Assembly (NCBI GenBank): GCA_964441025.1
Contig: CAYTXG010000010.1
Span: 3,301-67,300 of the forward strand
Length of the DNA stretch: 64,000 nt
Direction of reading: 5' to 3'
Origin: an uncultured Syntrophomonadaceae bacterium
Lineage (GTDB): Bacteria > Bacillota > Dethiobacteria > DTU022
Shown here: positions 134 to 61,322 of the stretch, one piece after another
Position numbering within the stretch: position 1 is the first letter of the stretch
How the letters are laid out: each line of letters starts with the position of its first letter
The notes under the pieces: generated by a model
What the model was told of the DNA's origin: nothing
Database searches by the model: none
The model's input: the letters and a program-made list of their open reading frames with translations, nothing else
Position numbers and translations under genes: made by a program

Positions 134-1438
134 TTGGCAGATCAAAATATAAATATAATGCTGCCCAACGGGGTTCGGCTCACCTTTATCCGCACCTCTA
201 AATTCAAGACCATCAGCATGGCCCTGTTCATCCACCAGGAGCTTGCTGCAGGCAAGGCCGCGCTAACGGCGCTGCTTCCCGCGGTTCTGGAGCGCGGCAG
301 CCGGCAGTATCCGGACAATCTAACCCTGCGCCGGGCGCTGGAAGAGCTTTACGGCGCCGAACTCACCACCGATGTGCATAAAAAGGGGGAGCGGCATCTT
401 ATATCCTGTTCGCTGGAGATAATGCACGGCAAGTACGTGGGAGAAGGGGAGCAGATGCTGCGCCGGGGGCTGTCCATCCTCGGCGCGATCATCGGTGATC
501 CCCTGGTTATCGACGGCGGTTTCAAGGAGCCTTACGTGGTCCAGGAGAAGGAGCAGCTGGCCGATATTATCAGGGGTCTGATCAATGACAAGGCACTCTA
601 CGCCGTTGAAAAATGCCTGCAGGGCATGTGCGCAAAGGAGAGATTCGGCGTCTTCAGGTACGGATCCCTGGAGGGACTGGATGGAATCAGCCCCGTTTCC
701 CTCTGGCGCTACTACCGCGAGATCCTCTCCGCCAACCCGGTGGAACTGTACATAGTGGGCGATCTGGAGGCGCAGCAGGTGGAGGAGGCGGCCCGGGAGA
801 CGGTGCGCTTCCACCGCGGGCCGCAAACGGGGGCCCCGGGCCTGCCTGATACGGAGATCTATTTTGAACCTGCTGAAGTGAAATTTGTTGAAGAGGCGAT
901 GGCGGTGGGCCAGGCCAAGCTGGTTCTCGGCTACCGCACCAATATCGCCTACAGCGACCCGCTCTATTTCGCGCTGGTCATGTACAGCGGCATCCTGGGG
1001 GGTTTTCCCCATTCCAAGCTTTTTCTAAATGTTCGCGAGAAAGCGAGCCTGGCTTACTATGCCCATTCGCGCCTGGAGAGGCATAAAGGGCTCATGCTCA
1101 TTGCCGCCGGCATTGAGGGAGGCAGGTACGAGCAGGCGCGGCAGATAATCGAGCAGCAGGTTGAGGATATGGCTCGCGGGCGGATCAGCGAGGTCGAACT
1201 GGAGAACACGCGGCGGGGCCTGGTTGACCAGCTCCGCGCCGGGGAAGACAACCCCTACCAGTTTATCAACAGGCAGCTGGACGGCGGGATCGGCGGAAAA
1301 CAGTATACCACGGCGGAGATGATCCGGGCCATAGAAGAGGTCGGCCCGGGAGAGATCACAGCTGTAGCGGAGAAGGTCAGGCTTGATACCGTGTACCTGC
1401 TGCGGAGTGAGGAAGGGGTTGAAACCCATGGTCAATGA
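134..1438 (+). CDS. M16 family peptidase, non-catalytic-type partner (no HxxEH motif)
   Basis: The 434-aa ORF has insulinase-like fold signatures. It probably starts at TTG 134, preceded by GGGAGGG. Its 3' end overlaps the next M16 gene by 11 nt, a typical M16B pair arrangement. Confidence 0.7.
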   Translation: MADQNINIMLPNGVRLTFIRTSKFKTISMALFIHQELAAGKAALTALLPAVLERGSRQYPDNLTLRRALEELYGAELTTDVHKKGERHLISCSLEIMHGKYVGEGEQMLRRGLSILGAIIGDPLVIDGGFKEPYVVQEKEQLADIIRGLINDKALYAVEKCLQGMCAKERFGVFRYGSLEGLDGISPVSLWRYYREILSANPVELYIVGDLEAQQVEEAARETVRFHRGPQTGAPGLPDTEIYFEPAEVKFVEEAMAVGQAKLVLGYRTNIAYSDPLYFALVMYSGILGGFPHSKLFLNVREKASLAYYAHSRLERHKGLMLIAAGIEGGRYEQARQIIEQQVEDMARGRISEVELENTRRGLVDQLRAGEDNPYQFINRQLDGGIGGKQYTTAEMIRAIEEVGPGEITAVAEKVRLDTVYLLRSEEGVETHGQ

Positions 1439-2735
1439 CAGGAATAAAAGAGTGCGTGAATTTGCCGAGCTGCAGGAAACACTTGTTTGCTACACAATTT
1501 ACCCGGGGATGCCCCTGTACATCCTTCCCAAGCCCGGCTACCAGAAAAAATATGCCGCCTTTGCCGCCCACTTCGGCTCCATCGACAACCGCTTCCAGGT
1601 GGAAGGCGCCGCCGAACCGGTCACAATTCCGGAAGGGGTGGCTCATTTTCTGGAGCACAAGCTTTTTGAGGATGAGCGGGGGAATGTGTTCGACCGTTTT
1701 GCCGCCCACGGCGCCTCATCCAATGCCTATACCACCTTTACGCATACCAGCTACCTTTTCTCGACAACGGATCACTTTTCAGAATGCCTGGAGCTGCTTC
1801 TTGACTTTGTGCAGGAGCCCTATTTTACCGGGGAATCGGTGAGCAAGGAGCAGGGGATCATCGGGCAGGAGATCGGCATGTACCAGGACAGCCCCCAATG
1901 GCGGGTTTTCTTTGATCTTTTGCAGTCGCTTTACGAGCGCCACCCTGTGCGCGAGGATATCGTCGGCACGGTGGAGAGCATTGCCCGGATCACGCCCGAG
2001 CTGCTCTATCAATGCTACCGGCGTTTTTACCATCCGGGCAACATGGCCATGTTTGTTGTCGGCGATCTCGAGCCCGACGAGATCTGGAAGCAGGTCAGCG
2101 AGAATATCGAGCGTCACAATTACAGGGAACTTGCCCCCATCGCCAGGCTCTACCCCGAGGAGCCGGCAACGGTGCTGCGCCGGCGCACCAGCCGGGAGAT
2201 GGTTGTCTCCGAGCCGCTTTTTCACCTGGGCTTCAAGGATCCGGCGGCGGTGCGGCTTGAGGGGGAGGCGCTGCTGCGCCGCGAGAGCGCCATGGAGATC
2301 ATGCTCGATATTATCTTCGGCTCCAGCGAGGCGCTTTTCAACGAGCTATATGAAAATATGCTGATAGACGATCGCTTTGAAGCGGGCTACACCGCGGAGG
2401 CCGGCTATGCTTATATCCTCATCGGAGGGGAGACAAGGGACCCCGACCGGCTCTATGAGAGGATCATGGGCGCCATTGAAGAGGCGAAAAAAGCGGGATT
2501 CAGCGCCGGCCAGTTTGAGCGCCACCGGCGGGACCGCCTGGGCAGCTTCATGCGCCGCTTCAATTCCCTGGAATACATCGCCAACAATTACCTGGCCTAC
2601 CGCTTCCGCGGCAGCGACCTTTTCAACTATCCGGCTGTGTTGCAGCAGATTACCCTGGACGAGGTTTACTCCCTTGTTGAAGAGACGCTCATCCCCGAGA
2701 GGCACGCCGTCTCCATCATCACCCCCAAAAAATGA
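1428..2735 (+). CDS. M16 family zinc peptidase (inverzincin HxxEH motif HFLEH)
   Basis: The HFLEHKLFEDERG motif is near the N-terminus. ATG at 1428 is preceded by GAGGAAGGGG. The long ORF start at 1383 sits inside the upstream gene and is unlikely. The stop TGA at 2733-2735 is the first triplet of a REP element. Confidence 0.8.
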   Translation: MVNDRNKRVREFAELQETLVCYTIYPGMPLYILPKPGYQKKYAAFAAHFGSIDNRFQVEGAAEPVTIPEGVAHFLEHKLFEDERGNVFDRFAAHGASSNAYTTFTHTSYLFSTTDHFSECLELLLDFVQEPYFTGESVSKEQGIIGQEIGMYQDSPQWRVFFDLLQSLYERHPVREDIVGTVESIARITPELLYQCYRRFYHPGNMAMFVVGDLEPDEIWKQVSENIERHNYRELAPIARLYPEEPATVLRRRTSREMVVSEPLFHLGFKDPAAVRLEGEALLRRESAMEIMLDIIFGSSEALFNELYENMLIDDRFEAGYTAEAGYAYILIGGETRDPDRLYERIMGAIEEAKKAGFSAGQFERHRRDRLGSFMRRFNSLEYIANNYLAYRFRGSDLFNYPAVLQQITLDEVYSLVEETLIPERHAVSIITPKK

Positions 2736-2761
2736 GTCAAGGGGACGGAGGATTTGACTCA
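2733..2761. repeat. REP-like 29-bp palindromic element (variant TGAGTCAAGGGGACGGAGGATTTGACTCA)
   Basis: Direct reading; the outer arms TGAGTCAA/TTGACTCA are reverse complements. It supplies the stop codon of the upstream CDS. Confidence 0.9.
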
Positions 2762-3188
2762 CTCTGCCATGGGCTGCCGACCAGGGTCAAGGTGCGTTCC
2801 TCCGGGGAGTTAGGTTTATCTTACGGGACCAGTTTTACACCGGCTGCACAAATTCGGGCGACCTGTAGGTCGCCCCTTGTACACCGGCCAGACATGGGTC
2901 ACCCGGCACCGCCTGATCCATCCTGTTGCCGTATTCCCCGCAGAACCGGGTTCCAACGGGGCTTTTCGCCCTGCAGCATTCACATTTCAGCCCTTTTCCC
3001 TCCTATGCAGATCTTCTCCCGCTGCGCCAAGTATATCCTGCGATTAGAAAAGGTTGGCGAGCTATTCCCTTCGCTCCGGTTCACCACAGGCGAGGGTTTA
3101 ATAATTGCTTGCTCTTCAGAGGGAAAGCCGTTACAATAGTCAAAGAGCGTGTACACAAAATTGTGCACAAACAGCGGGGAGGAAAAAC

Positions 3189-5930
3189 ATGCATCCATTT
3201 ACTGAATATCTCAATCCTTACTTAGGCGATCTCCTGCAAAACATGGCCATGGATAAGAGCTTTGTGCGGGGGGATGGTTGCCATCTTTACGATGAATCCG
3301 GCAACCGCTATCTCGACTGCATAGCCGCTTACGGTGCGCTGCCCTTCGGGCATAACCCCCCGGAGATCTGGGAGGCGGTGACCGGTTTCCGCATCTCCGG
3401 GGAGCCCAATTTTGTGCAGCCCTCTTATCTCGACGCAGCGGGTTTGCTGGCGAAAGGGCTGGTGGAGACGGCTCCGCCTGGCCTGCGCTACGTCACCTTT
3501 ACCAACAGCGGCGCCGAAGCGGTGGAAGCTGCGCTGAAGCTCTGCCGCGCCGCCACCGGGCGTAAAGGGATCCTGGCAGCAGATAACAGCTTCCACGGCA
3601 AGACCCTGGGCGCGCTTTCCGCAACGGGGAACAGCGCCTACCAGGCGCCTTTTGGGACCCCGGTGGAGGGATTCGATTTTGTTAAATACGGGGATCCCGA
3701 TGCTTTGGAAGCCAAATTCGCGGCGGCGCCGCGGTTCTATGCCGCCTTTATCGCCGAGCCTATCCAGGGCGAGGGGGGGATTGTTGTGCCGCCGACGGAC
3801 TACCTTTCCCGGGTTAAAGAGATCTGCGCCCGCTACGGGGTTCTCCTGGTGGTGGATGAGATTCAGACCGGGCTGGGGAGAACTGGCCGTTTATTTGCCT
3901 GTGAAGAGGAAGGAGTTACACCGGACCTGCTGCTCCTGGCCAAAGCCCTGGGCGGCGGCCTTGTGCCCATAGGCGCCTGCCTAAGCACTGCAGAGGCATA
4001 CAGCGATCTCTTTGCGCTGAAGCATTCCTCGACCTTTGCGGGAAATTCACTGGCCTGCCGGGTGGGGCTCCGGGTGCTGGAGCAGCTTACTGCGGATAAC
4101 GGCGCACTGCTGCACCAGGTCCAAAAGCGGGGGCTGCTGTTGAAGGAGGGTCTTTACGCCCTGCAAGAAAAGTACCCGCACCTGATCAGTGCTGTGCGGG
4201 GGAGAGGTTTGATGCTCGGCCTGGAGCTGTCCATGGAGCGGCGCTCATATCCGGGCAGCCTTCTCGGATTTGCCGCCGAACAGGAGCTTCTGGCACCGGC
4301 TCTCTCCGCCTACCTGCTGAACCGGGAGCGGATTCGCGTGGCCCCCACGCTGAACGGCGGCGCCGTTATCCGTATTGAACCGCCGCTCATTATCACTGAC
4401 GCACAGTGCCGCCGAGCTTTGGAAGGCATTTCCGCCGCAATGGCGGTGCTGAACGAAGCAAATACGGCAAGATTCTTCTCATTTTTGGTTACAGATAAGT
4501 CGGAGCTGCGCGGACTCAAAGAACAGTTTTCTCCGGGCCCACCGGCGCCTGGCGGAGCGAAAACAGCAGCCGGCGGGCCTGTTCCGGCAGGTCAGCCGGA
4601 ACAAGCGGCAGCTGCCCCAACTGCCGGCGCCGCCGCCGCTTTCCCCGGTGCGGGTCGCTTTGCCTTCCTGCTTCATCCTCTTGACCTGCAGAGCTATTCG
4701 CAATTTGATAAAAGCCTGCTCCTTTTTAACGAGGATGAACTTGCCCGCCTGGCGAAAAGGTGGAGCAGCCTGATGGAGCCCTATGTGATCTCCCGGGTGG
4801 ATCTGGTATCAAAAGAGGGCGGCTGCGCCCGGGGTGAATTTATCGTTATACCGCGCACAGCCGTAGAGCTGTCCCGGATGCCCCGCGAAAAAGCACTGCA
4901 GGAGCTGCGGAAGGCGATGAATCTGGCCCGGGCGGGCGGCGCTGGTATTGTCGGTCTGGGCGCCTATACCGCCGTTGTCTCCATGGGCGGGCTCTACCTG
5001 AAAGACGAGAAAATCCCGCTGACCACCGGGAACAGCTACACCGTTGTCTCGGCGGCTGAAGCGGTTGGCGCCGCCTGCGGGAAGCTGGGGATACTGCCGC
5101 AGGGCAGCACCGTAGCGGTTATCGGGGGCGCCGGCTCCATCGGCAAGGGGGTGGCCCTGCTGCTTTCCGAAAGCGCGGGCGGGCTTATCCTGGTAGGGAA
5201 TCCTCACAGCAAAAAGAAGGCCTGCGGCGCTCAGCGGATGTGGGGGGTTGCTGCAGAGATCTACCGCTACCTGGCCCGGCTGCTGCAGGGGGGACGCCTT
5301 TTTCCCTGCGGCAGCATGGGTGATCGCCTGTCCCGCTGCGCAGCGCTGCCTTCGCCCGAAGCATCTCTGCAAGATTTCGTTGACTTTGCCCGCAGCGCTG
5401 CGCAACGGGGCGGGCCTATCCGGGTCGCTCTTTCCGCCAAAGAGGGGCTCGGCCGGGCAGGAATCGTGATCAGCGCCACCAGCAGCCGGGAAAAACTGAT
5501 CGGACCGGGCGATCTGCAGCCGGGAGCAGTTGTCTGTGATATCTCAAGGCCGCCCAATGTGAGCGAAGCGGTGGAGAACGAGCGCCCCGATGTCCTGGTT
5601 ATTGACGGCGGCGTTGTCGAGCTGCCCGGGCGCCCCGACCTGGGCTGGGATTTCGGATTCCCGCCGGGTCTGGCCTACGCCTGTATGGCCGAAACAATGA
5701 TGCTGGCCCTGGAGCGCCGCTACGAGCACTTCAGCCTGGGCTCCTCCGGGGTGAACCTGGATTCCATATTGCAGACCCGCCGGTGGGCCGGCCGTCACGG
5801 TTTCAAGCTGGCCGATCTGCGCAGCTTTGATCGCCCCTTGAGCAAAGGGCGCTGGGAGCAGCTGCTTGCCGCCCGCCGCGAACAAAAAACCGCCGTGAGC
5901 CACGGTGACAGTGAGTCAAGGGGACGGTGA
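3189..5930 (+). CDS. Fusion protein: class-III PLP aminotransferase (N-terminal ~440 aa) plus acyl-ACP reductase (AAR)-like NAD(P)-binding domain (C-terminal ~430 aa)
   Basis: ATG 3189 follows GGGGAGG with a 6-nt spacer. The N-terminal part has class-III aminotransferase motifs (NSGAEAVEAALKL, VVDEIQTGLGRTG). A Pro/Ala-rich linker follows. The C-terminal part resembles cyanobacterial aldehyde-forming acyl-ACP reductase (FAFLLHPLDL, GAGIVGLGAYTAVV, VAVIGGAGSIGKGVA, VIDGGVVE). The last codons (ESRGR-stop) are encoded by a REP element. Confidence 0.75.
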   Translation: MHPFTEYLNPYLGDLLQNMAMDKSFVRGDGCHLYDESGNRYLDCIAAYGALPFGHNPPEIWEAVTGFRISGEPNFVQPSYLDAAGLLAKGLVETAPPGLRYVTFTNSGAEAVEAALKLCRAATGRKGILAADNSFHGKTLGALSATGNSAYQAPFGTPVEGFDFVKYGDPDALEAKFAAAPRFYAAFIAEPIQGEGGIVVPPTDYLSRVKEICARYGVLLVVDEIQTGLGRTGRLFACEEEGVTPDLLLLAKALGGGLVPIGACLSTAEAYSDLFALKHSSTFAGNSLACRVGLRVLEQLTADNGALLHQVQKRGLLLKEGLYALQEKYPHLISAVRGRGLMLGLELSMERRSYPGSLLGFAAEQELLAPALSAYLLNRERIRVAPTLNGGAVIRIEPPLIITDAQCRRALEGISAAMAVLNEANTARFFSFLVTDKSELRGLKEQFSPGPPAPGGAKTAAGGPVPAGQPEQAAAAPTAGAAAAFPGAGRFAFLLHPLDLQSYSQFDKSLLLFNEDELARLAKRWSSLMEPYVISRVDLVSKEGGCARGEFIVIPRTAVELSRMPREKALQELRKAMNLARAGGAGIVGLGAYTAVVSMGGLYLKDEKIPLTTGNSYTVVSAAEAVGAACGKLGILPQGSTVAVIGGAGSIGKGVALLLSESAGGLILVGNPHSKKKACGAQRMWGVAAEIYRYLARLLQGGRLFPCGSMGDRLSRCAALPSPEASLQDFVDFARSAAQRGGPIRVALSAKEGLGRAGIVISATSSREKLIGPGDLQPGAVVCDISRPPNVSEAVENERPDVLVIDGGVVELPGRPDLGWDFGFPPGLAYACMAETMMLALERRYEHFSLGSSGVNLDSILQTRRWAGRHGFKLADLRSFDRPLSKGRWEQLLAARREQKTAVSHGDSESRGR

Positions 5931-5940
5931 CTTTGACTCA
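5912..5940. repeat. REP-like element, consensus TGAGTCAAGGGGACGGTGACTTTGACTCA
   Basis: Direct reading; contains the stop codon (5928-5930) of the fusion gene. Confidence 0.9.
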
Positions 5941-5958
5941 CATCTTATGCAATTAAAT

Positions 5959-5987
5959 AGAGTCGGAGGGACGTTTACCTTGACTCA
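5959..5987. repeat. Degenerate second REP copy (AGAGTCGGAGGGACGTTTACCTTGACTCA)
   Basis: It sits 19 bp after the first copy in the same orientation, with about 8 mismatches. Confidence 0.6.
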
Positions 5988-5995
5988 CCGGTCGC

Positions 5996-6766
5996 TCAAG
6001 CCCTTTGAATCATGTTTCTGTTTATCCCGGCGACGCGTTCTATTTGCCGGTGACTGACCCCCGGCAGGGCTTTTAACTTCCGCAGGAGCATGTTTCTTCT
6101 GTTAGCGGGCATTTTAAGAAGCTCCGCCGTTGATTTGCCGGCTAAAACCAGCTGGATCAACTGCTCTGCATGCCCATCTGTAGCCCTGGTAATATCGTTG
6201 ATATCCAGCAGATCCTCGTCGCCGCAAATTTTCAAGTGGAATTCGGCAAACTCCTGTTGCCCGCCGATGATCTCCAAAGCCAGAGCTGTATCTGTCAGGC
6301 TGGTGTCCACGCTTTCCGGTTTCATATAATCACGATAGCTGCTCCAGGGATAGCTTGCGCAATATTGCGTTATTCCAGCCTTCACAGGATTCTGATGGAT
6401 GTAGCGTAACGCCGTCAGCAGATATTCGTCCACATGAACAGGTTCACTGTGGAAGCGCCCCTGGAACAAATGTCCCACCCGATCGTGCTTCCGGTTATAC
6501 CAGTACACATAAGCGCTTCCCAGCCGTTTCATGATCTGGCTGACCGTTTCGATGATCTCGGCGATGAGCAAATGCACATGATTGCCCATCAGGCAATATC
6601 CATAAATCATGCATCTGCTGCGTTTTTTAACAGAATCGAGTATCTCCAAGAATCTGGTTCTATCTTCTTTATCTTGAAAGATGTTACGGCGGTTAATCCC
6701 TCTTAGTATTACATGATAGACACCGGTTTCGCTCCTTTTACGAGCTGTTCTGGGCATGCCAATCAT
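5996..6766 (-). CDS. IS200/IS605-like Y1 (HuH) transposase of the REP-associated type (RAYT), with a C-terminal HTH-like extension
   Basis: The HuH motif (GNHVHLLI) is followed by the tyrosine region (YVYWYNRKHDRVGHLFQGRF). REPs in opposite orientation flank the gene at 5912-5987 and 6889-6917. Confidence 0.8.
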   Translation of the reverse strand: MIGMPRTARKRSETGVYHVILRGINRRNIFQDKEDRTRFLEILDSVKKRSRCMIYGYCLMGNHVHLLIAEIIETVSQIMKRLGSAYVYWYNRKHDRVGHLFQGRFHSEPVHVDEYLLTALRYIHQNPVKAGITQYCASYPWSSYRDYMKPESVDTSLTDTALALEIIGGQQEFAEFHLKICGDEDLLDINDITRATDGHAEQLIQLVLAGKSTAELLKMPANRRNMLLRKLKALPGVSHRQIERVAGINRNMIQRA

Positions 6767-6888
6767 TCCTTTTCAGAAGATATTTGCATGGATTATTATA
6801 CCATAGCGGTAAGATTCTGAAAACAAGGTCTCAACAAGCAGCACTCCTGCTGCAGCGGTTGCCGGAGAATCCAGGGAGACGCTTCTGG

Positions 6889-6917
6889 TGAGTCAAAGTC
6901 ACCGTCCCCTTGACTCA
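6889..6917. repeat. REP-like element, inverted orientation (TGAGTCAAAGTCACCGTCCCCTTGACTCA)
   Basis: Exact reverse complement of the 5912 copy. Confidence 0.9.
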
Positions 6918-14656: not shown

Positions 14657-14853
14657 GCTGTTCAATGTCTGCCAAATTTAATCGTCAAGTTGCCGGGAAC
14701 CGGATCTGCCCGGCCGCTGTCATTAAGATAGAAAGAATATCCATGGGAGGGATGAGAGGTAAAACAAACATTTCAAAAACTGCCGAATATGAGGGCCGGC
14801 AAATCCGGCTTCATCGCCGGAATGGTAGTTATAAAAAAAGTAAGGGAGCGGCA

Positions 14854-16167
14854 ATGACAATGAAGCGTATAGTTTTGATCTTACTCACCTGTTTATTCCT
14901 TGTTTTTGTTTCCGGATGCGATTCTCTTTTCCATGCTGAGCCGGGGGACAAAGAGGGCCAGATCTATTCTGGTATCATCGAGGTGATCTATCCCCGGGCT
15001 TATGAGCTTGAAGACCGCGATGCGCAGTGGAAAGTTTTCGAGCAGAACCCCGTTGACGACCTCTTTATGGCTGCGCTCAGCGATTTTTCCTATAAAACAG
15101 GCGCCGCCATCCTCCGGGACGCCGGGGAAAACATGAATTACTCACCTCTTTCGCTCTATTATGCCCTGGCCCTGGCGGCCTCGGGGGCAAGGGGCGAGAC
15201 GGAAGCAGAGCTGCTGGCCCTGCTGGGCGTGCCTGACAGCCGCTTTCTTTCTACACAGTGCGGGAATCTCTACCGGATGCTGTACCGGGACAACGAAATC
15301 GGCAAGCTCAAGATCGCCAACTCCCTCTGGATGGACGACGACATGAACGGAGATCCCGTTGTCTTCAAGGAAGATTATGTTAAAGATTCGGCAGAGAATT
15401 TCTATGCCAGTTCACACAGCGTCGATTTTGCCGATGCCAAAGCGGGCCAGGCAATGGCTGATTGGATCGCGGCTCACACCAATGGCACGCTGTCTCCGGA
15501 GATTGAAACAGATCCCGATCAGATACTCTCCATCCTGAATACGGTCTATTTTTACGATCAGTGGATTGACCGTTTCGATGAGAGCAAAACCGCTGCAGAT
15601 CTGTTTCATCTTGCGAATGGCAGAGATGTAACCTGTGATTTTATGAACCAAACCTTTCTCTCGGCAAGTTTTGCAAAGGGGGAGCTCTATACCAGTGCGG
15701 CACTGGAGCTAAAAAATGGAGGCCGGATGATATTCGTGCTGCCCGACGAAAATGTCTCACCCTCTGAACTGCTCGGCTCTCCCGGGCAGATGCGGACACT
15801 ATTTGAGGGCGGGGAGCCCAGTTACGGTGAGATAGTCTGGAAAATACCCAAATTCGGTTTTGGATCAAAGCTTGAACTGGTTGATCTGTTAAAAGAGCTG
15901 GGCATTAGCGCCGCTTTTGCCGGTGATGCCGATTTTTCGGGCATTACCGATCACATCGCTTTTATTTCTGATGTGCACCAGGAAACGCATATTGCCGTCG
16001 ATGAAAAAGGCGTGGAAGCCTCGGCTTTTACCCAGATAGACTTTTGCGGCGCAGCGCCGCCTGAAAGCCGCGCTGAAATGATTCTCGACCGCCCCTTTCT
16101 TTACGCCATTACGGCGCCGGAGGGCAGCCTGCTCTTTGTGGGCCTGTGCGAGAATCCTACCGAATGA
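14854..16167 (+). CDS. Serpin (serine protease inhibitor) lipoprotein
   Basis: ATG 14854 follows AAGGGAG. The signal peptide ends in VSGC. Serpin motifs include NTVYFYDQW and the C-terminal hinge/RCL-proximal RPFLYAITAPEGSLLFVGLCENP. Confidence 0.75.
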   Translation: MTMKRIVLILLTCLFLVFVSGCDSLFHAEPGDKEGQIYSGIIEVIYPRAYELEDRDAQWKVFEQNPVDDLFMAALSDFSYKTGAAILRDAGENMNYSPLSLYYALALAASGARGETEAELLALLGVPDSRFLSTQCGNLYRMLYRDNEIGKLKIANSLWMDDDMNGDPVVFKEDYVKDSAENFYASSHSVDFADAKAGQAMADWIAAHTNGTLSPEIETDPDQILSILNTVYFYDQWIDRFDESKTAADLFHLANGRDVTCDFMNQTFLSASFAKGELYTSAALELKNGGRMIFVLPDENVSPSELLGSPGQMRTLFEGGEPSYGEIVWKIPKFGFGSKLELVDLLKELGISAAFAGDADFSGITDHIAFISDVHQETHIAVDEKGVEASAFTQIDFCGAAPPESRAEMILDRPFLYAITAPEGSLLFVGLCENPTE

Positions 16168-24396: not shown

Positions 24397-26103
24397 ATGA
24401 AAGATATACCGCTATACGAGGTCAGGAAAATTCGGGATCTGCGGGACATGCTCGGGCAAAGCGCGGAGCTGTATGGTGACCGCACCGCCTTTATGGTCAA
24501 GAAGGAGCGCGGCGGTTCCTACATCGATGTGACCATGCGGCAGTTTTCCGATGATGTCGATGCCTTTGGCACGGCGCTGCTCCATAACACGCCTGCCGGA
24601 AGCCGCGTGGCCATCCTTGCCGAGACGCGTTACGAATGGTATGTATCCTACCTCAGTGTAACAAACGGCACCGGCATTGTGGTGCCGCTGGATAAGGAGC
24701 TGCCGGGCCAGGAGATCGCCGGCATGCTGAACCGGGCTGAAGTGGACGTCCTGATCTATTCCGCATCAAAACAGGGCCTTCTCGATGAAATCGCGGACAG
24801 CATCCCGGGAGTGAAGAAATATATCTGCATGGATCGCCCCGGCAGCGGTAAGGGGGTCCTTTTCTTCGGCGATCTGCTGGAAGAGGGGCGCAGGCTCCTG
24901 GCAGAGGGCGATCGCGTTTTCCTCGATGCGCCCGTTGATCCGGAGGCCATGACCATCCTGCTCTTTACCAGCGGCACCACGGACAAGGCCAAGGCGGTGA
25001 TGCTCTCTCAGAAAAATATCTGCGCCAATCTCGAGGGGATGTGCTCCATGCTCTACATCGGCCCGGGGGACAGGTTTCTCTCGGTGCTGCCGCTGCACCA
25101 CACCTACGAGTGCACCTGCGGCTTCCTCTGCCAGGTTTACCGCGGCTGCACTGTTGCCGTCTGCGAGGGTCTGCTTCAGATCACGCAGAATATAAAGGAG
25201 AGCAAGCCCACCATGATCCTGGTGGTGCCGCTCATGTTGGAGCTGTTCCACCGCGCCATCATGAAGAAGGCGAAAGCCACCCCGAAGATGGCCCGCAAGT
25301 TTGAGTTCGGGCGGAAGCTGACCAGGCTCCTGCGGCGCTTCGGGATTGATCTGCGGCGCAAAATATTTGCCCCGGTGCATGAGAATTTCGGCGGCAACCT
25401 GCGCATGCTCGTCTCCGGGGGCGCCTCTGTAGATCCGCAAATACTGAAAGACATGCAGGATCTGGGCATAGCCTGCCTCCAGGGTTACGGGTTGACGGAA
25501 TGTGCACCTATCCTGGCCCTGAACCGGGATGTGGACTTTAACGATCGCGCCGCCGGTCTGCCGCTGCCGGGTGTCGAGATAAGGATCATCGAAAAGGACG
25601 AAGAGGGCATCGGGGAAATCATCGGCCGCGGACCCAATATCATGCTCGGTTACTACAAGAACCCTGAAGCCACGGCCGAAGCTATCGATGAGGAGGGCTT
25701 CTACCATACAGGAGATCTGGGATACATTGACAAAAACGGGTTCTGTATTGTCACGGGACGGAAGAAAAATGTGATCGTATCGAAGAATGGAAAGAATATT
25801 TTTCCGGAAGAGATTGAATCGCTGCTGTCGCTTTCTCCCTATGTTGCCGAATCCCTGGTTTCCGGCGATAATAACGAGCATGACGATGTCATCATCACTG
25901 CGGAGATCTTTCCCGATATGGAAGCTGTGGTGGAACGGCTGGGACCAGATCCGGACAAGAACGGCATCCAGGCGCTGCTGGAGGAAGAAGTTAAAAAGGT
26001 CAATGAGCAGCTGGTTTCATACAAGCGCATCCGCAGGGTGCTCCACCGCGACAGCGAGTTCGAGAAGACAACATCCAGGAAGATCCGCCGGCAGTACAAA
26101 TAG
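24397..26103 (+). CDS. Long-chain fatty acid-CoA ligase (AMP-dependent synthetase/ligase)
   Basis: AMP-binding motifs (LFTSGTTDKAK, YGLTECAP, TGDLGYIDKNGFCIVTGRKKN). RBS GGAGGTG. Confidence 0.85.
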   Translation: MKDIPLYEVRKIRDLRDMLGQSAELYGDRTAFMVKKERGGSYIDVTMRQFSDDVDAFGTALLHNTPAGSRVAILAETRYEWYVSYLSVTNGTGIVVPLDKELPGQEIAGMLNRAEVDVLIYSASKQGLLDEIADSIPGVKKYICMDRPGSGKGVLFFGDLLEEGRRLLAEGDRVFLDAPVDPEAMTILLFTSGTTDKAKAVMLSQKNICANLEGMCSMLYIGPGDRFLSVLPLHHTYECTCGFLCQVYRGCTVAVCEGLLQITQNIKESKPTMILVVPLMLELFHRAIMKKAKATPKMARKFEFGRKLTRLLRRFGIDLRRKIFAPVHENFGGNLRMLVSGGASVDPQILKDMQDLGIACLQGYGLTECAPILALNRDVDFNDRAAGLPLPGVEIRIIEKDEEGIGEIIGRGPNIMLGYYKNPEATAEAIDEEGFYHTGDLGYIDKNGFCIVTGRKKNVIVSKNGKNIFPEEIESLLSLSPYVAESLVSGDNNEHDDVIITAEIFPDMEAVVERLGPDPDKNGIQALLEEEVKKVNEQLVSYKRIRRVLHRDSEFEKTTSRKIRRQYK

Positions 26104-31674: not shown

Positions 31675-32009
31675 GTTCCACCTCCGTTGAAATATTTGCA
31701 ACACATCTCTTCACATTATACCTTAAACAGTTGCCCGGCGATGCCGGTAATTGTTAAAATTGCCTGAAATAGCCTTTGCATTTTGGAAGACCCTGTGTTA
31801 TCATGCATGTAATTTGAAGAAGGGAACTGCAGCATGTTACATATGAGCTTTGCAGCCGCCTATTTTTATTTTAGCTTTACCTATTTTTATGGTAAAGCCA
31901 ATAGCGGTTTGGCTGGCAGCTCATGAGAACCCGGTAACGTCCCTGATAAAACCATGAAGCCCTCAGCCGAACCGGCCGGGGGCTTCTCCATTTCTGGAGG
32001 TAAATGACA

Positions 32010-33023
32010 ATGATCGTGATTCTAAAAGCAAATCCCAATGAGAGTCAGCTGGAAAACCTCATCGCCTGGCTCAAGGAAAAAAACATTCAGGTGCATACCT
32101 CGATCGGCGAATCCCACATGATCCTGGGACTTGTCGGCGACACCTCCCATCTCGACATAGACCTCATCGAGGCGCTGGACATAGTCGAAGATGTGAAGCG
32201 CGTTCAGGAGCCCTACAAAAACGCCAACAGGAAATTTCACCCCGAAGCCACCGTGATCAGGGTGGGCGATATAGAGGTGGGAGGGGGCACGCTCACGATC
32301 ATGGCCGGCCCCTGCTCCGTGGAAAGCGAGGAGCAGATCATCACCGTGGCCAGGGCGGTCAAGGCCGCCGGCGCCACGATGCTGCGCGGCGGCGCCTTCA
32401 AGCCCAGGACATCCCCCTACTCTTTCCAGGGGCTCGGCTCCCTGGGCATCGAATTCTTGATCGAGGCAAAGCGGGAAACAGGCCTGCCCGTTGTCACGGA
32501 GATCATGGATGCCTCGCAGCTTGACTTCTTCGACGAAGTGGATATCATCCAGGTGGGCGCGCGGAATATGCAGAACTTCAACCTGCTCAAGGTGCTGGGC
32601 AGCCAGGAGAAGCCTGTCATGATCAAGAGGGGCATGTCCTGCACCTATGAAGAGCTGCTCATGAGCGCTGAATATGTGATGAGCCAGGGCAATGAAAATG
32701 TGATCCTCTGCGAGCGCGGCATCCGCACCTTTGAAACATACACCCGCAACACACTCGATATTGCGGCCATTCCGGTGCTGCGGCGCCTGACCCATCTTCC
32801 GGTAATTGTCGATCCCAGCCACGCCACCGGCAAAGCCTTTCTCATCCCGCCCCTGGCTGCCGCCGCCGTGGCCGGCGGTGCCGACGGGCTCCTCATCGAG
32901 GTGCACAACGCCCCGGAGCAGGCGCTCTGCGACGGCCCCCAATCCCTCAGGCCCGGGGATTTCGCCCAGCTGGCCGGCAAGCTGGCGGGGCTGCATGAGT
33001 TTATGAACGGCGGTGTCAGGTGA
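32010..33023 (+). CDS. aroF: 3-deoxy-7-phosphoheptulonate (DAHP) synthase, type I-beta, with N-terminal regulatory (ferredoxin-like) domain
   Basis: Catalytic-core motifs (IMAGPCSVES, RGGAFKPRTSPYSFQGLG). GGAGG lies 9 nt upstream of ATG 32010. Confidence 0.85.
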   Translation: MIVILKANPNESQLENLIAWLKEKNIQVHTSIGESHMILGLVGDTSHLDIDLIEALDIVEDVKRVQEPYKNANRKFHPEATVIRVGDIEVGGGTLTIMAGPCSVESEEQIITVARAVKAAGATMLRGGAFKPRTSPYSFQGLGSLGIEFLIEAKRETGLPVVTEIMDASQLDFFDEVDIIQVGARNMQNFNLLKVLGSQEKPVMIKRGMSCTYEELLMSAEYVMSQGNENVILCERGIRTFETYTRNTLDIAAIPVLRRLTHLPVIVDPSHATGKAFLIPPLAAAAVAGGADGLLIEVHNAPEQALCDGPQSLRPGDFAQLAGKLAGLHEFMNGGVR

Positions 33024-33025
33024 AA

Positions 33026-33862
33026 ATGAATATAGGCGTTGTGGGGCTGGGGCTCATCGGCGGATCCATGGCTAAAAGCATAAAATCGCGCACCCCGCAC
33101 ACTCTTTGGGGCAGCGATATCAACGGCGAAACGGAGACTGTGGCCCGCCTCTGCGGCGCCATTGACGGGCCCCTTGCAGACGACCGCATTGCACAGTGCG
33201 ATCTTATCTTTACCGCTATCCTGCCCGGGGCCACCATTGAATGGGTGCGCGAAAAGGGGCGCCGTATTTCCTGGAAAACTGTCCTTGTAGACCTCTGCGG
33301 CATCAAGCGCGTCGTCAGCGCCGAACTGGCGGCGACCGCCGCCAGCCATGGATTTACCTATATCGGGGGTCACCCCATGGCCGGCAAGGAGCAGTGGGGT
33401 TTTGCCCATTCCTCGGGGGACCTCTTTGACGGCGCTTCCATGATCCTGACGCCCGGCGGGGATGTGGAGCCGGCGCTTATGGAAAAGCTTGAACAGCTCT
33501 TCACGGATATCGGTTTTGCCGGCCTGACCGTGACCACGCCGGAGGAGCACGATCGGGTCATCGCCTACACCTCGCAGCTGGCCCATATCACCTCCAGCGC
33601 CTACGTGAAATCACCGCAGGCGCTGCGCCGCCGCGGCCTCTCCGCCGGCAGCTTTCGCGACCTGACCCGGGTGGCCCGGCTGGATCCGGAGATGTGGACA
33701 GAGCTGATGATGGGCAATGCCGATTATCTCGCTGAGCAGCTGGAGCTGCTCATCACCAACCTGGGCAAGTACCTTGTCGCGCTGCGCCGGGGAGATTCAG
33801 AAGAGCTGCGCCTGCTTCTGCAGGAGGGCTGCGAGAAAAAAGCCGCCGCGGGCGGCAGCTGA
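33026..33862 (+). CDS. tyrA: Prephenate dehydrogenase
   Basis: NAD-binding motif MNIGVVGLGLIGGS. GTG 33020 is an alternative start. Confidence 0.8.
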   Translation: MNIGVVGLGLIGGSMAKSIKSRTPHTLWGSDINGETETVARLCGAIDGPLADDRIAQCDLIFTAILPGATIEWVREKGRRISWKTVLVDLCGIKRVVSAELAATAASHGFTYIGGHPMAGKEQWGFAHSSGDLFDGASMILTPGGDVEPALMEKLEQLFTDIGFAGLTVTTPEEHDRVIAYTSQLAHITSSAYVKSPQALRRRGLSAGSFRDLTRVARLDPEMWTELMMGNADYLAEQLELLITNLGKYLVALRRGDSEELRLLLQEGCEKKAAAGGS

Positions 33863-33916
33863 CCAAACCAGCCACAGGGACGGGGGCTTTGGCTGGTCAA
33901 AGGAGTTTCCATAACC

Positions 33917-34990
33917 GTGAAAAATGATTGGGATAGAATACATGTCAGCGCCGGCGGGGGGTACGATGTCATTGTTGGCGCCGGGCTGCTGGAAAACTGC
34001 GGCGATATCGCCGCAGCCGCTGTGGAGCCCTGCCGCATCGCCGTGATCACCGACAGTGTGGTGGAGGGGCTTTATCTGGAGAATGCGGCCAAAAGTTTCT
34101 CCGGCGCCGGTTTCCAGGTGAGTTCTTTCTCCTTCCCCGCCGGGGAGAGCTCGAAGAATATGGGCACCCTTTCCCGCATTCTCGAATTTCTGGCCGGGGA
34201 GAGATTTACCCGCACCGACTGCCTGGCGGCCCTGGGCGGGGGGGTGGCCGGCGATATCGCCGGCTTTGCCGCCGGATGCTATCTGCGCGGGATCCGCTAT
34301 CTTCAGCTTCCGACAACGCTGCTGGCGGCGGTGGACTCCTCGGTGGGCGGCAAGACGGCGGTCAACCTGGAGGCGGGTAAGAACCTGGCCGGCCTCTTTG
34401 TGCAGCCCCGGGCGGTGATCTGCGACACCGGCTGCCTGGCTTCGCTGCCGCCCCATGTACTGGCGGACGGTGCAGCCGAAGCGATCAAGACGGGCATTCT
34501 GTCGGGAGAGGAGCTTTTCTCGATTTTTGAATCGGGCGGCATCAAAGAGAGGCTATCCGAAATCATTGCCCGCTGCGTGGCTTACAAGGGCCGTGTCGTC
34601 GAAGCCGATGAATTCGAGTCTGGCGCGCGCCGCATTTTGAACCTGGGCCACACCGTGGGCCATGCCATTGAGAAGTGCAGCGGCTATGCAATAGCCCACG
34701 GCCGCGCCGTGGCGGCAGGCACGGCCATCATTGCCCGCGCCTCTGCAAAACTCGGCCGCTGCAGCGAGGCGACGGCCGCCCGCATCGAGAGGGCGCTGCT
34801 GAAAAATGATCTTCCGGTAAGCACATCATTTTCCGCCGCGGGGCTTGCGGAGGCTGCGCTGGGCGACAAGAAACGCTCCGGCGGCGAGATCACGCTGGTG
34901 CTGCCCGGTGAGATCGGGGCCTGCTTTCTCTGGAGAATACCTGTGGCCGGACTCCGGGAGGTCATCAGCGCGGGACTGGAGGCAAGCTGA
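33917..34990 (+). CDS. aroB: 3-dehydroquinate synthase
   Basis: Motif GGGVAGDIAGFAAGCYLRGIRYLQLPTTLLAAVDSSVGGKTAVN. GTG start. Confidence 0.85.
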   Translation: MKNDWDRIHVSAGGGYDVIVGAGLLENCGDIAAAAVEPCRIAVITDSVVEGLYLENAAKSFSGAGFQVSSFSFPAGESSKNMGTLSRILEFLAGERFTRTDCLAALGGGVAGDIAGFAAGCYLRGIRYLQLPTTLLAAVDSSVGGKTAVNLEAGKNLAGLFVQPRAVICDTGCLASLPPHVLADGAAEAIKTGILSGEELFSIFESGGIKERLSEIIARCVAYKGRVVEADEFESGARRILNLGHTVGHAIEKCSGYAIAHGRAVAAGTAIIARASAKLGRCSEATAARIERALLKNDLPVSTSFSAAGLAEAALGDKKRSGGEITLVLPGEIGACFLWRIPVAGLREVISAGLEAS

Positions 34991-37324: not shown

Positions 37325-37334
37325 CTTTGACTCA
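37306..37334. repeat. REP-like element (TGAGTCACGGGGACGGTGACTTTGACTCA)
   Basis: Direct reading; provides the aroC stop codon. Confidence 0.9.
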
Positions 37335-37438
37335 TCCGCCCCGCCGAAATTGGGGGGGGGTGACAGGTTAACAGGACTCCTGCGGCGAGGCTGTCGCCGC
37401 GGCTGTACTTCTGGATATGATACTGGAGGGAAAAATCA

Positions 37439-38575: not shown

Positions 38576-38576
38576 T

Positions 38577-45980: not shown

Positions 45981-46009
45981 TGAGTCAAAGTCACCGTCCC
46001 CTTGACTCA
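45981..46009. repeat. REP-like element, inverted orientation
   Basis: Exact consensus reverse complement. It overlaps the yhaN stop region. Confidence 0.9.
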
Positions 46010-61000: not shown

Positions 61001-61322
61001 GGAGATGTGCTGGTTTGGCCGGAAAAGAGCCATGGGATCCTAAATATCTTAGAAGTACCCATGATACAAGGCGCCTGTCACCCGGACTTATTTTATCCGA
61101 AACAAGCCCTGCGACCCCCTCTTCTCTATAAATATCCGAACCGTGAGGTAATACACGCAAAATATCTTTAGCAAATTTTGTAAATAATGATGTTTTACGA
61201 CTATCACTTGTTACTGATTGTTCTACTACCTGATCGGTTAGGTAACGTACATCGTCGTCTGATGATCCAGCAATGGACGGGCTTAAGGAACCTGCCCTAG
61301 CCTGTCCTTGAAAGTGGGTCAT
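58097..61322 (-). pseudogene. Frameshifted gene for a ~1075-aa protein: N-terminal unknown domain + Arch_ATPase/STAND-like P-loop NTPase + C-terminal phosphoribosyltransferase (PRTase)-like domain
   Basis: Two ORFs (59640-61322 and 58097-59659) overlap by 20 nt at a C5/G5 homopolymer. Walker A (GQKRVGKTSVAKAL) and Walker B (FIIILDEFDEL) are in the upstream ORF. The rest of the same ATPase fold (EYSAGNPYFLKEI) is in the downstream ORF. The C-terminus carries a PRPP-loop-like motif (ALVFVDDFIGTGKTATG). The whole region is low GC. Confidence 0.6.

What the first reader, a model, noticed from the sequence alone, without database searches (positions are those of the whole stretch)
3189..5930. Natural fusion of a class-III aminotransferase to an aldehyde-forming acyl-ACP-reductase-like domain
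One 913-aa polypeptide has an N-terminal PLP transaminase of the acetylornithine/GABA/omega-aminotransferase class and a C-terminal domain aligning along its length with cyanobacterial acyl-ACP reductase (AAR), including the GxGxxG NAD(P) site. The two are joined by a Pro/Ala-rich linker. The chemical logic is tight: a thioester is reduced to an aldehyde, which is transaminated to a primary amine. This two-step reductive amination normally needs separate enzymes. A fused version could make fatty or other alkyl amines, run in reverse in amine catabolism, and would channel a reactive aldehyde. I do not know of a characterised member. It sits just downstream of an M16 peptidase pair and is abutted by REP/RAYT elements.
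Basis: partly seen in the sequence, partly recalled or inferred. Interest (0 to 1): 0.7.

Follow-up and report, generated by a model that had tools for sequence, protein, structure and literature searches.

The report
TamH-like transaminase–thioester reductase fusion enzyme
The gene is a real, intact fusion of a PLP transaminase to an acyl-ACP-reductase-like domain, but this design is already characterised (TamH, and PigE in the reverse order), so it is an uncharacterised Bacillota relative of a known enzyme type and not a new one.

Summary
ORF 3189..5930 (+) encodes 913 aa. It has an N-terminal class-III aminotransferase (Pfam E 1e-88, Lys252), a disordered 44-aa Pro/Ala/Gly linker, and a C-terminal domain whose best fold match is cyanobacterial acyl-ACP reductase (TM 0.78-0.80). 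The NAD(P) loop G646xxG649xxG652 and the catalytic Cys832 are both conserved. It is not an assembly artefact: at least 120 full-length homologues (54-82% identity) exist in independent Bacillota assemblies.

The thioester to aldehyde to amine logic is sound, but the claim that no member is characterised is wrong. PtTamH of Pseudoalteromonas tunicata has the same TA-then-TR order and was shown in vitro to convert C12-ACP to dodecylamine (PMC9594044). PigE has the same two domains in reverse order (PMC8341465). The window protein aligns colinearly with TamH (26% identity, E 3e-65).

What remains open is the substrate. This clade is strongly conserved across anaerobic Bacillota, looks monocistronic, and has no ACP, adenylating enzyme or biosynthetic cluster nearby. 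More distant relatives are fused to ANL or ANL-ACP modules, which points to carrier-bound acyl thioesters. Verdict: new member of a known kind, with modest interest.

The parts
3176..3182 (+). Shine-Dalgarno-like GGGGAGG, 6 nt before the ATG
   Evidence: Read directly from the sequence.
3189..5930 (+). Whole TA-TR gene, 913 codons plus the TGA stop
   Evidence: ORF list and translation. 100% match to database protein P0001, and 120 full-length homologues.
3189..4508 (+). Class-III PLP aminotransferase (omega-TA) domain, aa 1-440
   Evidence: Pfam PF00202 E 1.1e-88. PDB PigE TA E 5e-85 and YgjG E 1.6e-80. Foldseek gives 35-39% identity at TM 0.81-0.83.
3942..3944 (+). Codon of Lys252, the predicted PLP Schiff-base lysine (LLAK252ALGGG)
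   Evidence: Invariant in 44 homologues. Aligned with the Lys of TamH LAKSLGGG (K340 in the paper) and of PigE LSKSLSGG.
4509..4640 (+). Pro/Ala/Gly-rich interdomain linker, aa 441-484
   Evidence: Composition 14 A, 8 P, 8 G of 44. pLDDT below 50 over aa 441-483. About 26 aa longer than in more distant homologues.
4641..5927 (+). AAR-like NAD(P)H thioester reductase (TR) domain, aa 485-913
   Evidence: TIGR04058 E 5e-18 and PigE model positions 1-363 at E 1e-43. PDB 4ppm and 6jzq. Model pLDDT 91 with top fold hits AAR 6jzy/6jzq at TM 0.78-0.80. TamH TR 96 bits.
5124..5144 (+). Dinucleotide-binding loop G646-G-A-G649-S-I-G652
   Evidence: G646, G649 and G652 are invariant. Aligned with AAR 162-GATGDIG-168 and TamH GAAGNIG.
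5682..5684 (+). Codon of Cys832, the predicted acyl-enzyme nucleophile (YAC832MAET)
   Evidence: Invariant. Aligned with AAR Cys294, PigE Cys296 and TamH Cys887.
5912..5941 (.). REP palindrome overlapping the last 19 nt of the ORF; it supplies the last five codons, one base of the codon before, and the stop (SESRGR*)
   Evidence: Repeat family D1/I1 and 12 copies in the window. The C-terminus is about 10 aa longer than in the 76%-identical P0008.
2733..2762 (.). REP copy at the stop of the upstream M16 gene, at the start of the 450-nt upstream spacer
5959..5988 (.). Second, diverged REP copy between the gene and the RAYT
5996..6766 (-). RAYT (IS200-like Y1 transposase), convergent with the TA-TR gene. 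Context only, not part of the enzyme.
   Evidence: Pfam Y1_Tnp E 7e-17. Flanked by inverted REPs at 5912-5941 and 6888-6917, which are 100% complementary.
134..2735 (+). Upstream pair of M16 peptidase genes (ORFs 134..1438 and 1383..2735). Synteny with the TA-TR gene is conserved in part of the clade.
   Evidence: Pfam. The same pair lies upstream in L002, L003, L005, L085 and L089 but not in L001, L004, L006, L086, L087 or L088.

Best explanation
The gene encodes a bifunctional TamH-type enzyme.

Proposed mechanism: the C-terminal AAR-like domain takes an acyl group from a phosphopantetheinyl thioester (acyl-ACP, possibly acyl-CoA) onto Cys832. It reduces that acyl-enzyme with NAD(P)H bound at the G646xxG649xxG652 loop and releases an aldehyde. 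The N-terminal class-III PLP transaminase (Lys252) then converts the aldehyde to a primary amine, using an amino acid donor such as L-Glu or L-Ala. The enzyme probably works as a TA-mediated homodimer, with a flexible Pro/Ala linker tethering the reductase.

Shown here: the domain identities, folds, catalytic motifs, domain order, integrity and wide conservation.

Inferred: the activities (by homology to TamH, PigE and AAR), the direction, the cofactor and the substrate.

The most likely substrate class is a hydrophobic, fatty-type acyl thioester. Because no dedicated carrier or ligase is encoded nearby, the donor would be the cell's general acyl-ACP or acyl-CoA pool, or a partner encoded elsewhere in the genome.
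For: Domain, fold and motif evidence.

Homology to the characterised enzyme: colinear alignment with PtTamH over 838 aa (26% identity, E 3e-65), with the PLP Lys, the GxxGxxG loop and the Cys all aligned.

Experimental precedent: TamH converts C12-ACP to aldehyde to amine using NADH and L-Glu (PMC9594044). PigE has thioester reductase plus transaminase activity (PMC8341465). AAR works through a Cys294 acyl-enzyme mechanism (PMC7089970).

Fused relatives: among the 150 best 50%-cluster relatives of the TR domain there are 66 TA-TR, 10 TA-TR-ANL and 7 ANL(-ACP)-TA-TR proteins, at up to 50% identity in the TR domain. These link the di-domain to carboxylate activation and carrier loading.

Acyl pocket: positions aligned with TamH's predicted alkyl pocket are hydrophobic or aromatic and largely invariant. 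My hand mapping of the alignment onto the residues named gives F493, P497, L498, Y503, F506.

Selection on both halves: both domains are 52-80% identical across Bacillota homologues.
Against: No ACP, ANL ligase, PPTase or biosynthetic cluster lies within 10 kb in any of 13 loci examined. The only ANL gene in the window (24397-26103) is 18 kb away, behind unrelated genes.

Identity to every characterised relative is low (TamH TR 25%, AAR 22-23%), so substrate and cofactor cannot be transferred from them.

The window protein is below the curated NCBIfam cutoffs for PigE, AAR and putrescine aminotransferase.

TamH itself rejected acyl-CoA, so an orphan enzyme without a dedicated carrier is not a straightforward analogue.

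No experiment exists for this clade in the literature searched.
Confidence: 0.7

Rival explanations
1. Same two catalytic domains, but run physiologically in the catabolic direction. A primary amine (for example a diamine, polyamine or alkylamine) is transaminated to an aldehyde, and the AAR-like domain oxidises that aldehyde with NAD(P)+ onto Cys832 and passes it to CoA or ACP. This would be a CoA-acylating aldehyde dehydrogenase analogue useful to anaerobes.
For: After PigE, the closest solved TA relatives are the catabolic putrescine aminotransferase YgjG (E 1.6e-80, 35-36% identity) and ornithine/GABA aminotransferases. The gene sits among housekeeping genes, not in a biosynthetic cluster. 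The hosts are anaerobic fermenters; the window also encodes an aldehyde:ferredoxin oxidoreductase and alanine dehydrogenase. From general knowledge, acylating aldehyde oxidation is thermodynamically favourable.
Against: All characterised members of the AAR/TamH/PigE family work in the reductive direction. Fused relatives carry ANL and ACP modules that make thioesters, not ones that consume them. No amine transporter or downstream acyl-CoA genes are linked.
Confidence: 0.12
2. It performs the reductive two-step chemistry, but on a small polar primary-metabolic thioester and not a fatty acyl chain. Examples would be succinyl-CoA to GABA, malonyl-CoA/ACP to beta-alanine, or a glutamyl thioester to a diamino or amino acid. 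That would make it a housekeeping amino-compound synthase.
For: Conservation is unusually strong for a secondary-metabolism enzyme: 54-82% identity across Dethiobacteria, Limnochordia, Halanaerobiales, Clostridia and Tissierellia-type genomes. The gene has a monocistronic, core-genome context with no dedicated carrier. The TA domain belongs to the ArgD/OAT/GABA-AT/putrescine group, which handles polar omega-amines. The AAR fold is distantly related to glutamyl-tRNA reductase, which feeds a class-III aminomutase.
Against: Residues aligned to the TamH and AAR acyl tunnel are hydrophobic or aromatic, not charged. No riboswitch, T-box or pathway neighbour points to a specific metabolite. This is pure inference with no positive test.
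Confidence: 0.1
3. The C-terminal domain is not a reductase. It would be a TAD-like (terminal amidation domain) or otherwise non-reductive NAD-binding member of the AAR superfamily, so the pair does something other than reductive amination.
For: The carmabin TAD structures are the second-best fold match (E 4e-17 to 2e-14, TM 0.65-0.72). TADs share the Cys and the NAD site, and one TAD cluster consists of discrete non-BGC proteins.
Against: AAR scores better than TAD (E 3e-21, 22-23% identity, against 16-17% for TAD). At the sequence level the domain matches the functional reductase domains of PigE and TamH. TADs sit at NRPS C-termini and are not reported fused to a transaminase. A fused omega-transaminase makes chemical sense only with an aldehyde.
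Confidence: 0.03
4. The fusion is an artefact: a frameshift or mis-assembly merged two adjacent genes.
For: None found. The only oddity is that the 3' end, including the stop codon, lies inside a REP element.
Against: 120 full-length homologues share the same architecture in NCBI, ENA, JGI and Logan assemblies. There are 66 or more distinct 50%-identity clusters with the TA-TR order. The whole-protein model is confident (pTM 0.81). Characterised TamH has the same layout.
Confidence: 0.005

Closest known systems
PtTamH (Pseudoalteromonas tunicata tambjamine YP1 pathway; UniProt A4C5V8; PMC9594044)
   Same: Same architecture and order: an N-terminal class-III PLP omega-transaminase, a linker of about 50 aa, and a C-terminal AAR-like thioester reductase. 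The PLP Lys, the GxxGxxG loop and the catalytic Cys all align, and the alignment is colinear over 838 aa (E 3e-65). By phmmer score it is the closest characterised TR domain (96 bits).
   Different: Only 26% identical overall (TA about 30%, TR about 25%). TamH has an insertion of about 80 aa in its TA domain. TamH sits in the 19-gene tam cluster and needs the ANL-ACP protein TamA as acyl donor, whereas the window gene has no carrier, ligase or cluster nearby and belongs to a Bacillota-wide conserved clade. Cofactor and chain length cannot be inferred from TamH.
PigE (Serratia prodigiosin MAP pathway; PDB 4PPM; NCBIfam NF053554; PMC8341465)
   Same: Same two domains and same chemistry (thioester reduction, then transamination). 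It is the best NCBIfam hit (536 bits) and the best PDB sequence and fold hit for the TA half (E 5e-85, 38-39% identity). The TR half hits the PigE N-domain at E 4e-24 with the Cys aligned.
   Different: The domain order is reversed (TR then TA in PigE). The score is below the 850-bit equivalog cutoff. There are no pig genes (PigD/PigB) or any pyrrole pathway nearby.
Cyanobacterial acyl-ACP reductase AAR (TIGR04058; PDB 6JZQ/6JZY; PMC7089970)
   Same: Best fold match for the C-terminal domain (TM 0.78-0.80 over about 400 columns). Same three-subdomain layout, an N-terminal FxxLxH motif (His496 aligns with AAR His7), the dinucleotide loop and the Cys294 equivalent.
   Different: 22-23% identity, and 65 bits against a 449.7-bit cutoff. 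AAR is a stand-alone protein partnered with ADO to make alkanes, whereas here the domain is fused to a transaminase. The aligned residues for two of the three Arg residues that hold the NADPH phosphate in AAR are Asn671 (for R189) and Ser852 (for R314), by my reading of the alignment.
TAD, putative terminal amidation domain of CarI (carmabin; PDB 9E4S and others; bioRxiv 10.1101/2024.10.28.620694)
   Same: AAR-superfamily fold with NAD bound next to an invariant Cys that a carrier-bound substrate can reach. It is the second-best fold match.
   Different: 16-17% identity. TADs sit at NRPS C-termini, their function is unproven (amide formation), and they are not fused to a transaminase.
GluTR-GSAM (HemA-HemL) and discrete TR/TA pairs (CpkC TR + CpkG; TabE + TabA)
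   Same: Same logic: an activated carboxyl is reduced to an aldehyde and passed to a class-III PLP enzyme. Channelling has been proposed for GluTR-GSAM.
   Different: These are separate polypeptides. The reductases are of different families (tRNA-dependent GluTR; SDR-type TR; ALDH-type TabE).

Membership tests
TamH-type TA-TR bifunctional enzymes | N-terminal class-III PLP transaminase with the Schiff-base lysine | tested here: met
   PF00202 E 1.1e-88. Lys252 is invariant and aligns with TamH K340.
TamH-type TA-TR bifunctional enzymes | C-terminal AAR-like reductase with a GxxGxxG loop and a catalytic Cys | tested here: met
   G646/G649/G652 and Cys832 are invariant and align with TamH G707/G710/G713 and C887. 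AAR is the top fold hit.
TamH-type TA-TR bifunctional enzymes | Domain order TA then TR on one polypeptide, joined by a flexible linker | tested here: met
   The alignment with TamH is colinear.
TamH-type TA-TR bifunctional enzymes | Dedicated acyl donor (an ANL-ACP protein such as TamA) and a natural-product gene cluster context | tested here: not met
   No PP-binding or ANL gene within 10 kb in the window or in 13 homologous loci. The window holds core genes only.
TamH-type TA-TR bifunctional enzymes | NADH-dependent acyl-ACP to aldehyde to amine activity | not testable with these tools
   Needs enzymology. Only the precedent from PMC9594044 is available.
PigE (NF053554 equivalog) | Whole-protein score at or above the curated 850-bit cutoff, with TR-then-TA order | tested here: not met
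   536 bits. The N-half matches profile positions 382-730 and the C-half matches positions up to 363, so the order is swapped.
Cyanobacterial AAR (TIGR04058 equivalog) | Score at or above the 449.7-bit cutoff; a stand-alone protein of about 340 aa | tested here: not met
   65.5 bits, and the domain is fused.
Cyanobacterial AAR (TIGR04058 equivalog) | AAR fold with the catalytic Cys at the junction of the NAD cleft and the acyl tunnel | tested here: met
   Foldseek TM 0.78-0.80 to 6jzy/6jzq, with the Cys aligned in sequence. The 3-D position of the Cys was not inspected.
   Shikimate_DH scores 19.7 bits, below its 24.3 cutoff, over only 47 residues of the Rossmann core. No such structure is among the top fold hits. 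The Cys is present.
Putrescine aminotransferase (NF008570 / TIGR03372), the name some databases give to homologues | Score at or above the curated cutoffs (612 and 658.65 bits) | tested here: not met
   325.9 and 297.5 bits. The Oxobacter homologue P0117 is labelled putrescine aminotransferase.

The most novel reading that the evidence does not exclude
This is not a natural-product tailoring enzyme. On this reading, the Bacillota clade is a vertically inherited, core-metabolic thioester-to-amine enzyme that draws directly on the general acyl-ACP or acyl-CoA pool without a dedicated carrier. It would make a so-far unrecognised cellular amine in anaerobic Firmicutes, for example free or lipid-bound fatty amines, or a small amino compound.
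Probability: 0.25. Interest if true: 0.6.

Novelty: new member of a known kind. Interest (0 to 1): 0.3.

Why it matters
The enzyme type turns a carboxylic thioester into a primary amine in one protein. That is of practical interest for making fatty or alkyl amines biocatalytically, and TamH has already been promoted for this use. The window protein adds a large, well-conserved and apparently partner-independent clade from anaerobic Bacillota, with at least 120 sequences at 54% identity or more. Its natural substrate and product are unknown. If it accepts general acyl-ACP or acyl-CoA, it would be a simpler catalyst than TamA/TamH and would point to an unrecognised amine metabolite in these bacteria. 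As a discovery about enzyme architecture it adds little, because the fusion and its mechanism are published.

Tried and rejected
1. Exact look-up of the window protein's contig found nothing on record. The organism was instead inferred from homologues as Dethiobacteria-like Bacillota.

2. The genome-contig scan with the family alignment was swamped by the generic aminotransferase motif EPIQGEGG. Only about 5 of the 80 loci were full-length relatives.

3. I searched for a riboswitch or leader upstream that could name the metabolite. There was no Rfam hit in the window, and none upstream of six homologues.

4. Promoter and terminator scans near the gene were uninformative.

5. I searched for partner genes by tblastn with ANL and ACP modules from fused relatives. 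The only hit in the window was an ANL gene 18 kb away, and nothing turned up near the homologues apart from one ANL-like match about 8 kb downstream on the opposite strand in L007.

6. Pfam annotation of about 40 window ORFs found no cluster.

7. Literature searches for this clade in Clostridia/Bacillota found nothing.

8. The full-length fold search returned only TA-domain hits, so the TR domain had to be modelled separately.

9. The afdb50 fold library was unavailable.

10. NAD versus NADP preference cannot be decided from sequence. TamH keeps the AAR R189 equivalent yet is NADH-specific.

11. I considered and rejected PigE orthology (order and score), AAR orthology (score), a shikimate-DH-like fold, a TAD-like function, and an assembly artefact.

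12. The TamH sequence was taken from machine-read supplementary text. It is 936 of 941 residues with a few OCR errors, so identities to TamH are approximate.
Full report
**1. The observation**

The + strand ORF listed mechanically as 3105..5930 has an ATG at 3189, 6 nt after GGGGAGG. From there it encodes 913 aa ending at TGA 5928-5930.

- **N-terminal half.** Pfam finds Aminotran_3 over aa 25-417 at E 1.1e-88. The closest solved relatives are the transaminase domain of PigE (E 5e-85), putrescine aminotransferase YgjG (E 1.6e-80) and acetylornithine aminotransferases.
- **C-terminal half (aa 485-913).** It has no Pfam family above threshold; Shikimate_DH reaches 19.7 bits against a 24.3 cutoff and covers only 47 residues. 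It does match NCBIfam's acyl-ACP reductase model (E 5e-18), the N-terminal part of the PigE model (E 1e-43), PDB 4ppm (E 4e-24) and AAR 6jzq (E 1.6e-15).
- **Fold.** An AlphaFold model of this half built on 44 homologues is confident (pLDDT 91, pTM 0.89). Its seven best Foldseek hits in the PDB are all AAR chains (E 3e-21 to 2e-18, TM by target 0.77-0.80, about 400 aligned columns). The carmabin TAD comes next, and generic Rossmann dehydrogenases follow only at E around 1e-6.
- **Motifs.** The dinucleotide loop G646-G-A-G649-S-I-G652 and the Cys of YAC832MAET align with AAR GATGDIG/Cys294 and PigE Cys296. Both are invariant in 44 homologues.
- **Linker.** The two halves are joined by aa 441-484, with 14 Ala, 8 Pro and 8 Gly of 44 residues. 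This stretch is the main low-confidence segment of the full-length model (pLDDT below 50 over 441-483; whole model pLDDT 85, pTM 0.81); the only other one is the last six residues.

**2. Not an artefact**

A search of 5.8 billion proteins returned a 100% match. All 120 listed best hits are full length (858-916 aa) at 54-82% identity, with the same architecture. They come from NCBI, ENA, JGI and Logan assemblies. Where named, they come from Dethiobacteria, Dethiobacter, Limnochordia, Halanaerobiales, Oxobacter pfennigii, Caldisalinibacter kiritimatiensis and unclassified Bacillota. Both halves are conserved: TA 62-80% and TR 47-76% in 13 loci.

**3. What is already known**

NCBIfam's top hit for the whole protein is the PigE model (536 bits). 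The N-half matches profile positions 382-730 and the C-half matches positions up to 363, so these are the same two domains in swapped order.

The literature shows that both orders are characterised.

- **PigE (TR then TA).** It was shown to reduce a thioester intermediate before transamination. Its N-domain was modelled on AAR with Cys296 as the nucleophile (PMC8341465).
- **PtTamH (941 aa).** It has exactly the order seen here, with an N-terminal PLP omega-transaminase, a linker of about 50 aa and a C-terminal AAR-like reductase (G707xxG710xxG713, C887).
  - The purified enzyme is a homodimer and binds PLP.
  - It transaminates C7-C14 aldehydes with L-Glu or L-Ala.
  - Together with the ANL-ACP protein TamA, ATP and NADH, it converts dodecanoic acid to dodecylamine through a detectable aldehyde.
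  - It does not accept C12-CoA (PMC9594044).

I recovered a machine-read TamH sequence from that paper's supplement (936 of 941 residues). The window protein aligns with it colinearly over 838 residues (26% identity, E 3e-65), and Lys252, the glycine loop and Cys832 are in register with K340, G707-G713 and C887. By phmmer score the TR domain is slightly closer to TamH (96 bits) than to PigE (88.6) or AAR (60). The TA domain, in contrast, is closer to PigE, YgjG and ArgD (35-40% identity) than to TamH (about 30%), whose TA domain carries an insertion of about 80 aa.

**4. How big the family is, and what it is fused to**

An exhaustive HMMER scan of 1.84 billion cluster representatives with the TR domain found 1,933 clusters at E ≤ 1e-10 and 466 at E ≤ 1e-30. 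I classified the best 150 with local phmmer:

| Architecture | Count |
|---|---|
| TA-TR | 66 |
| TA-TR-ANL | 10 |
| ANL(-ACP)-TA-TR | 7 |
| TR only (many probably fragments) | 67 |
| TR-TA (PigE order) | 0 |

Pfam confirmed AMP-binding, PP-binding, Aminotran_3 and TR in a 1,599-aa protein whose TR domain is 50% identical to the window's. It also confirmed a 1,423-aa TA-TR-ANL protein, and a 2,624-aa protein that additionally carries an alpha-oxoamine-synthase-like domain. The few named examples come from a hydrothermal-vent metagenome and an uncultured Sphingomonas. These fusions are the best computational evidence that the TA-TR unit normally receives an acyl group that has been adenylated and loaded on a carrier.

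**5. Context of the window gene**

Nothing of that kind is nearby. The gene lies between the M16 peptidase pair (134-2735) and a convergent RAYT (5996-6766). Beyond those are an M23 peptidase, a MATE exporter, MarR, an ABC transporter, a two-component system, a serpin, a ribonucleotide reductase and a surface protein. There is also an ANL ligase at 24397-26103, 18 kb away and 23% identical to the fused ANL modules. Further genes include alanine dehydrogenase, an aromatic amino-acid operon and an aldehyde:ferredoxin oxidoreductase.

In 13 homologous loci the gene looks monocistronic with changing neighbours. The M16 pair is upstream in L002, L003, L005, L085 and L089 (0.15-4.8 kb away) but absent in L001, L004, L006 and L086-L088. 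ProRS follows the gene in two loci. No ACP or ANL gene adjoins the gene in any of these loci; the one ANL-like match lies about 8 kb downstream on the opposite strand in L007. No Rfam element precedes the gene.

The clade is thus a strongly conserved, orphan version of the TamH design. I found no paper on it.

**6. Mechanism proposed, and its limits**

- **Shown here:** two intact, conserved catalytic domains with all motif residues, an AAR fold, a disordered tether, and wide vertical-looking conservation.
- **Inferred by homology:** acyl transfer to Cys832, hydride transfer from NAD(P)H, aldehyde release, PLP-dependent amination at Lys252, and dimerisation through the TA domain.
- **Substrate:** residues aligned with the alkyl pocket predicted for TamH (F550, L554, I555, L560, I563) are F493, P497, L498, Y503 and F506 here, and most of these are invariant. 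This mapping was done by hand. It favours a hydrophobic acyl chain, perhaps shorter than C12 given the bulkier aromatics, but it is weak evidence.
- **Cofactor:** it cannot be called. The residues aligned with two of AAR's three phosphate-binding arginines (R189, R314) are Asn671 and Ser852 by my reading of the alignment, which hints at NADH. However, TamH keeps one of these arginines and is still NADH-specific.
- **Rivals that remain open:** the catabolic direction, and a small polar thioester substrate. A TAD-like non-reductive role is unlikely, and an artefact is excluded.

**7. Verdict**

This is a correct observation of an enzyme type that is already described. It is a new, uncharacterised member of the TamH/PigE TA-TR family, with an unusual partner-less, core-genome context in anaerobic Bacillota. 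Interest is modest: the open question is the substrate and product of this clade, not the architecture.

Noticed in passing
window 2734, 5913, 5960, 6890, 8653, 8830, 24259, 30178, 37307, 40216, 45982, 50909 (27-nt cores): A REP family (core GAGTCAAGGGGACGGTGACTTTGACTC, an imperfect palindrome) has 12 copies in 64 kb, giving 24 strand-matches against 1.2 expected. Several copies overlap ORF 3' ends (ORF ends at 2735, 8676, 37324 and 40233). For the TA-TR gene the REP demonstrably supplies the last residues SESRGR and the TGA stop, which makes its C-terminus about 10 aa longer than in close homologues.
   Followed up: partly
window 5996-6766 (-), with REPs at 5912-5941/5959-5988 and 6888-6917: A RAYT-type Y1 transposase (IS200-like, E 7e-17) is bracketed by inverted REP copies that are 100% complementary over 30 nt. 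This is the classic REP-RAYT arrangement.
   Followed up: partly
window 134-2735; L002 7248-9849; L003 4705-7306; L005 2619-5175; L085 1-2264; L089 3078-5676: A pair of M16 peptidase genes (one with only the inactive M16_C domain detected, one with M16 plus M16_C) lies upstream of the TA-TR gene in six loci of the clade but not in the others. I could not tell whether this is a functional link or just inherited synteny.
   Followed up: partly
proteins P0159 (1599 aa), P0167 (1423 aa), P0170 (2624 aa), P0176 (1535 aa): Metagenomic mega-enzymes fuse the TA-TR unit to ANL-ACP (in effect TamA and TamH in one chain), to a C-terminal ANL, or to ANL + alpha-oxoamine-synthase-like + ANL-ACP modules. 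The TR domains are 42-50% identical to the window's. I found no description of these in the papers I read.
   Followed up: partly
window 14665-16167 (+): A 500-aa ORF with a full-length serpin domain (E 1e-64) lies downstream of a LuxR-type two-component system.
   Followed up: no
window 58097-61322 (-): Two adjacent genes, one with a PRTase-CE domain (E 1e-50) and one encoding an AAA_16 ATPase, may form a defence-type module. Nearby are a large AAA_27/SMC-like ATPase with a metallophosphoesterase (46007-50781, -) and a UvrD-like helicase (55776-57887).
   Followed up: no
window 38451-39821 (+): In the aromatic amino-acid operon (32004-39821), one ORF combines a shikimate dehydrogenase N-domain with shikimate kinase. 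As listed, it overlaps the preceding chorismate mutase/prephenate dehydratase ORF by about 125 nt, so its true start is probably later.
   Followed up: no
L001 13348-13545 (+): A T-box leader (114 bits) lies about 0.7 kb downstream of the Oxobacter pfennigii TA-TR gene, ahead of a 56-aa called ORF. It is not upstream of the TA-TR gene itself.
   Followed up: no
L007 859-3727: In the 47%-identical UBA8346 homologue, the TA-domain match is split (query aa 1-162 and 211-430, about 420 nt apart). This suggests an insertion or a frameshift in that assembly.
   Followed up: no
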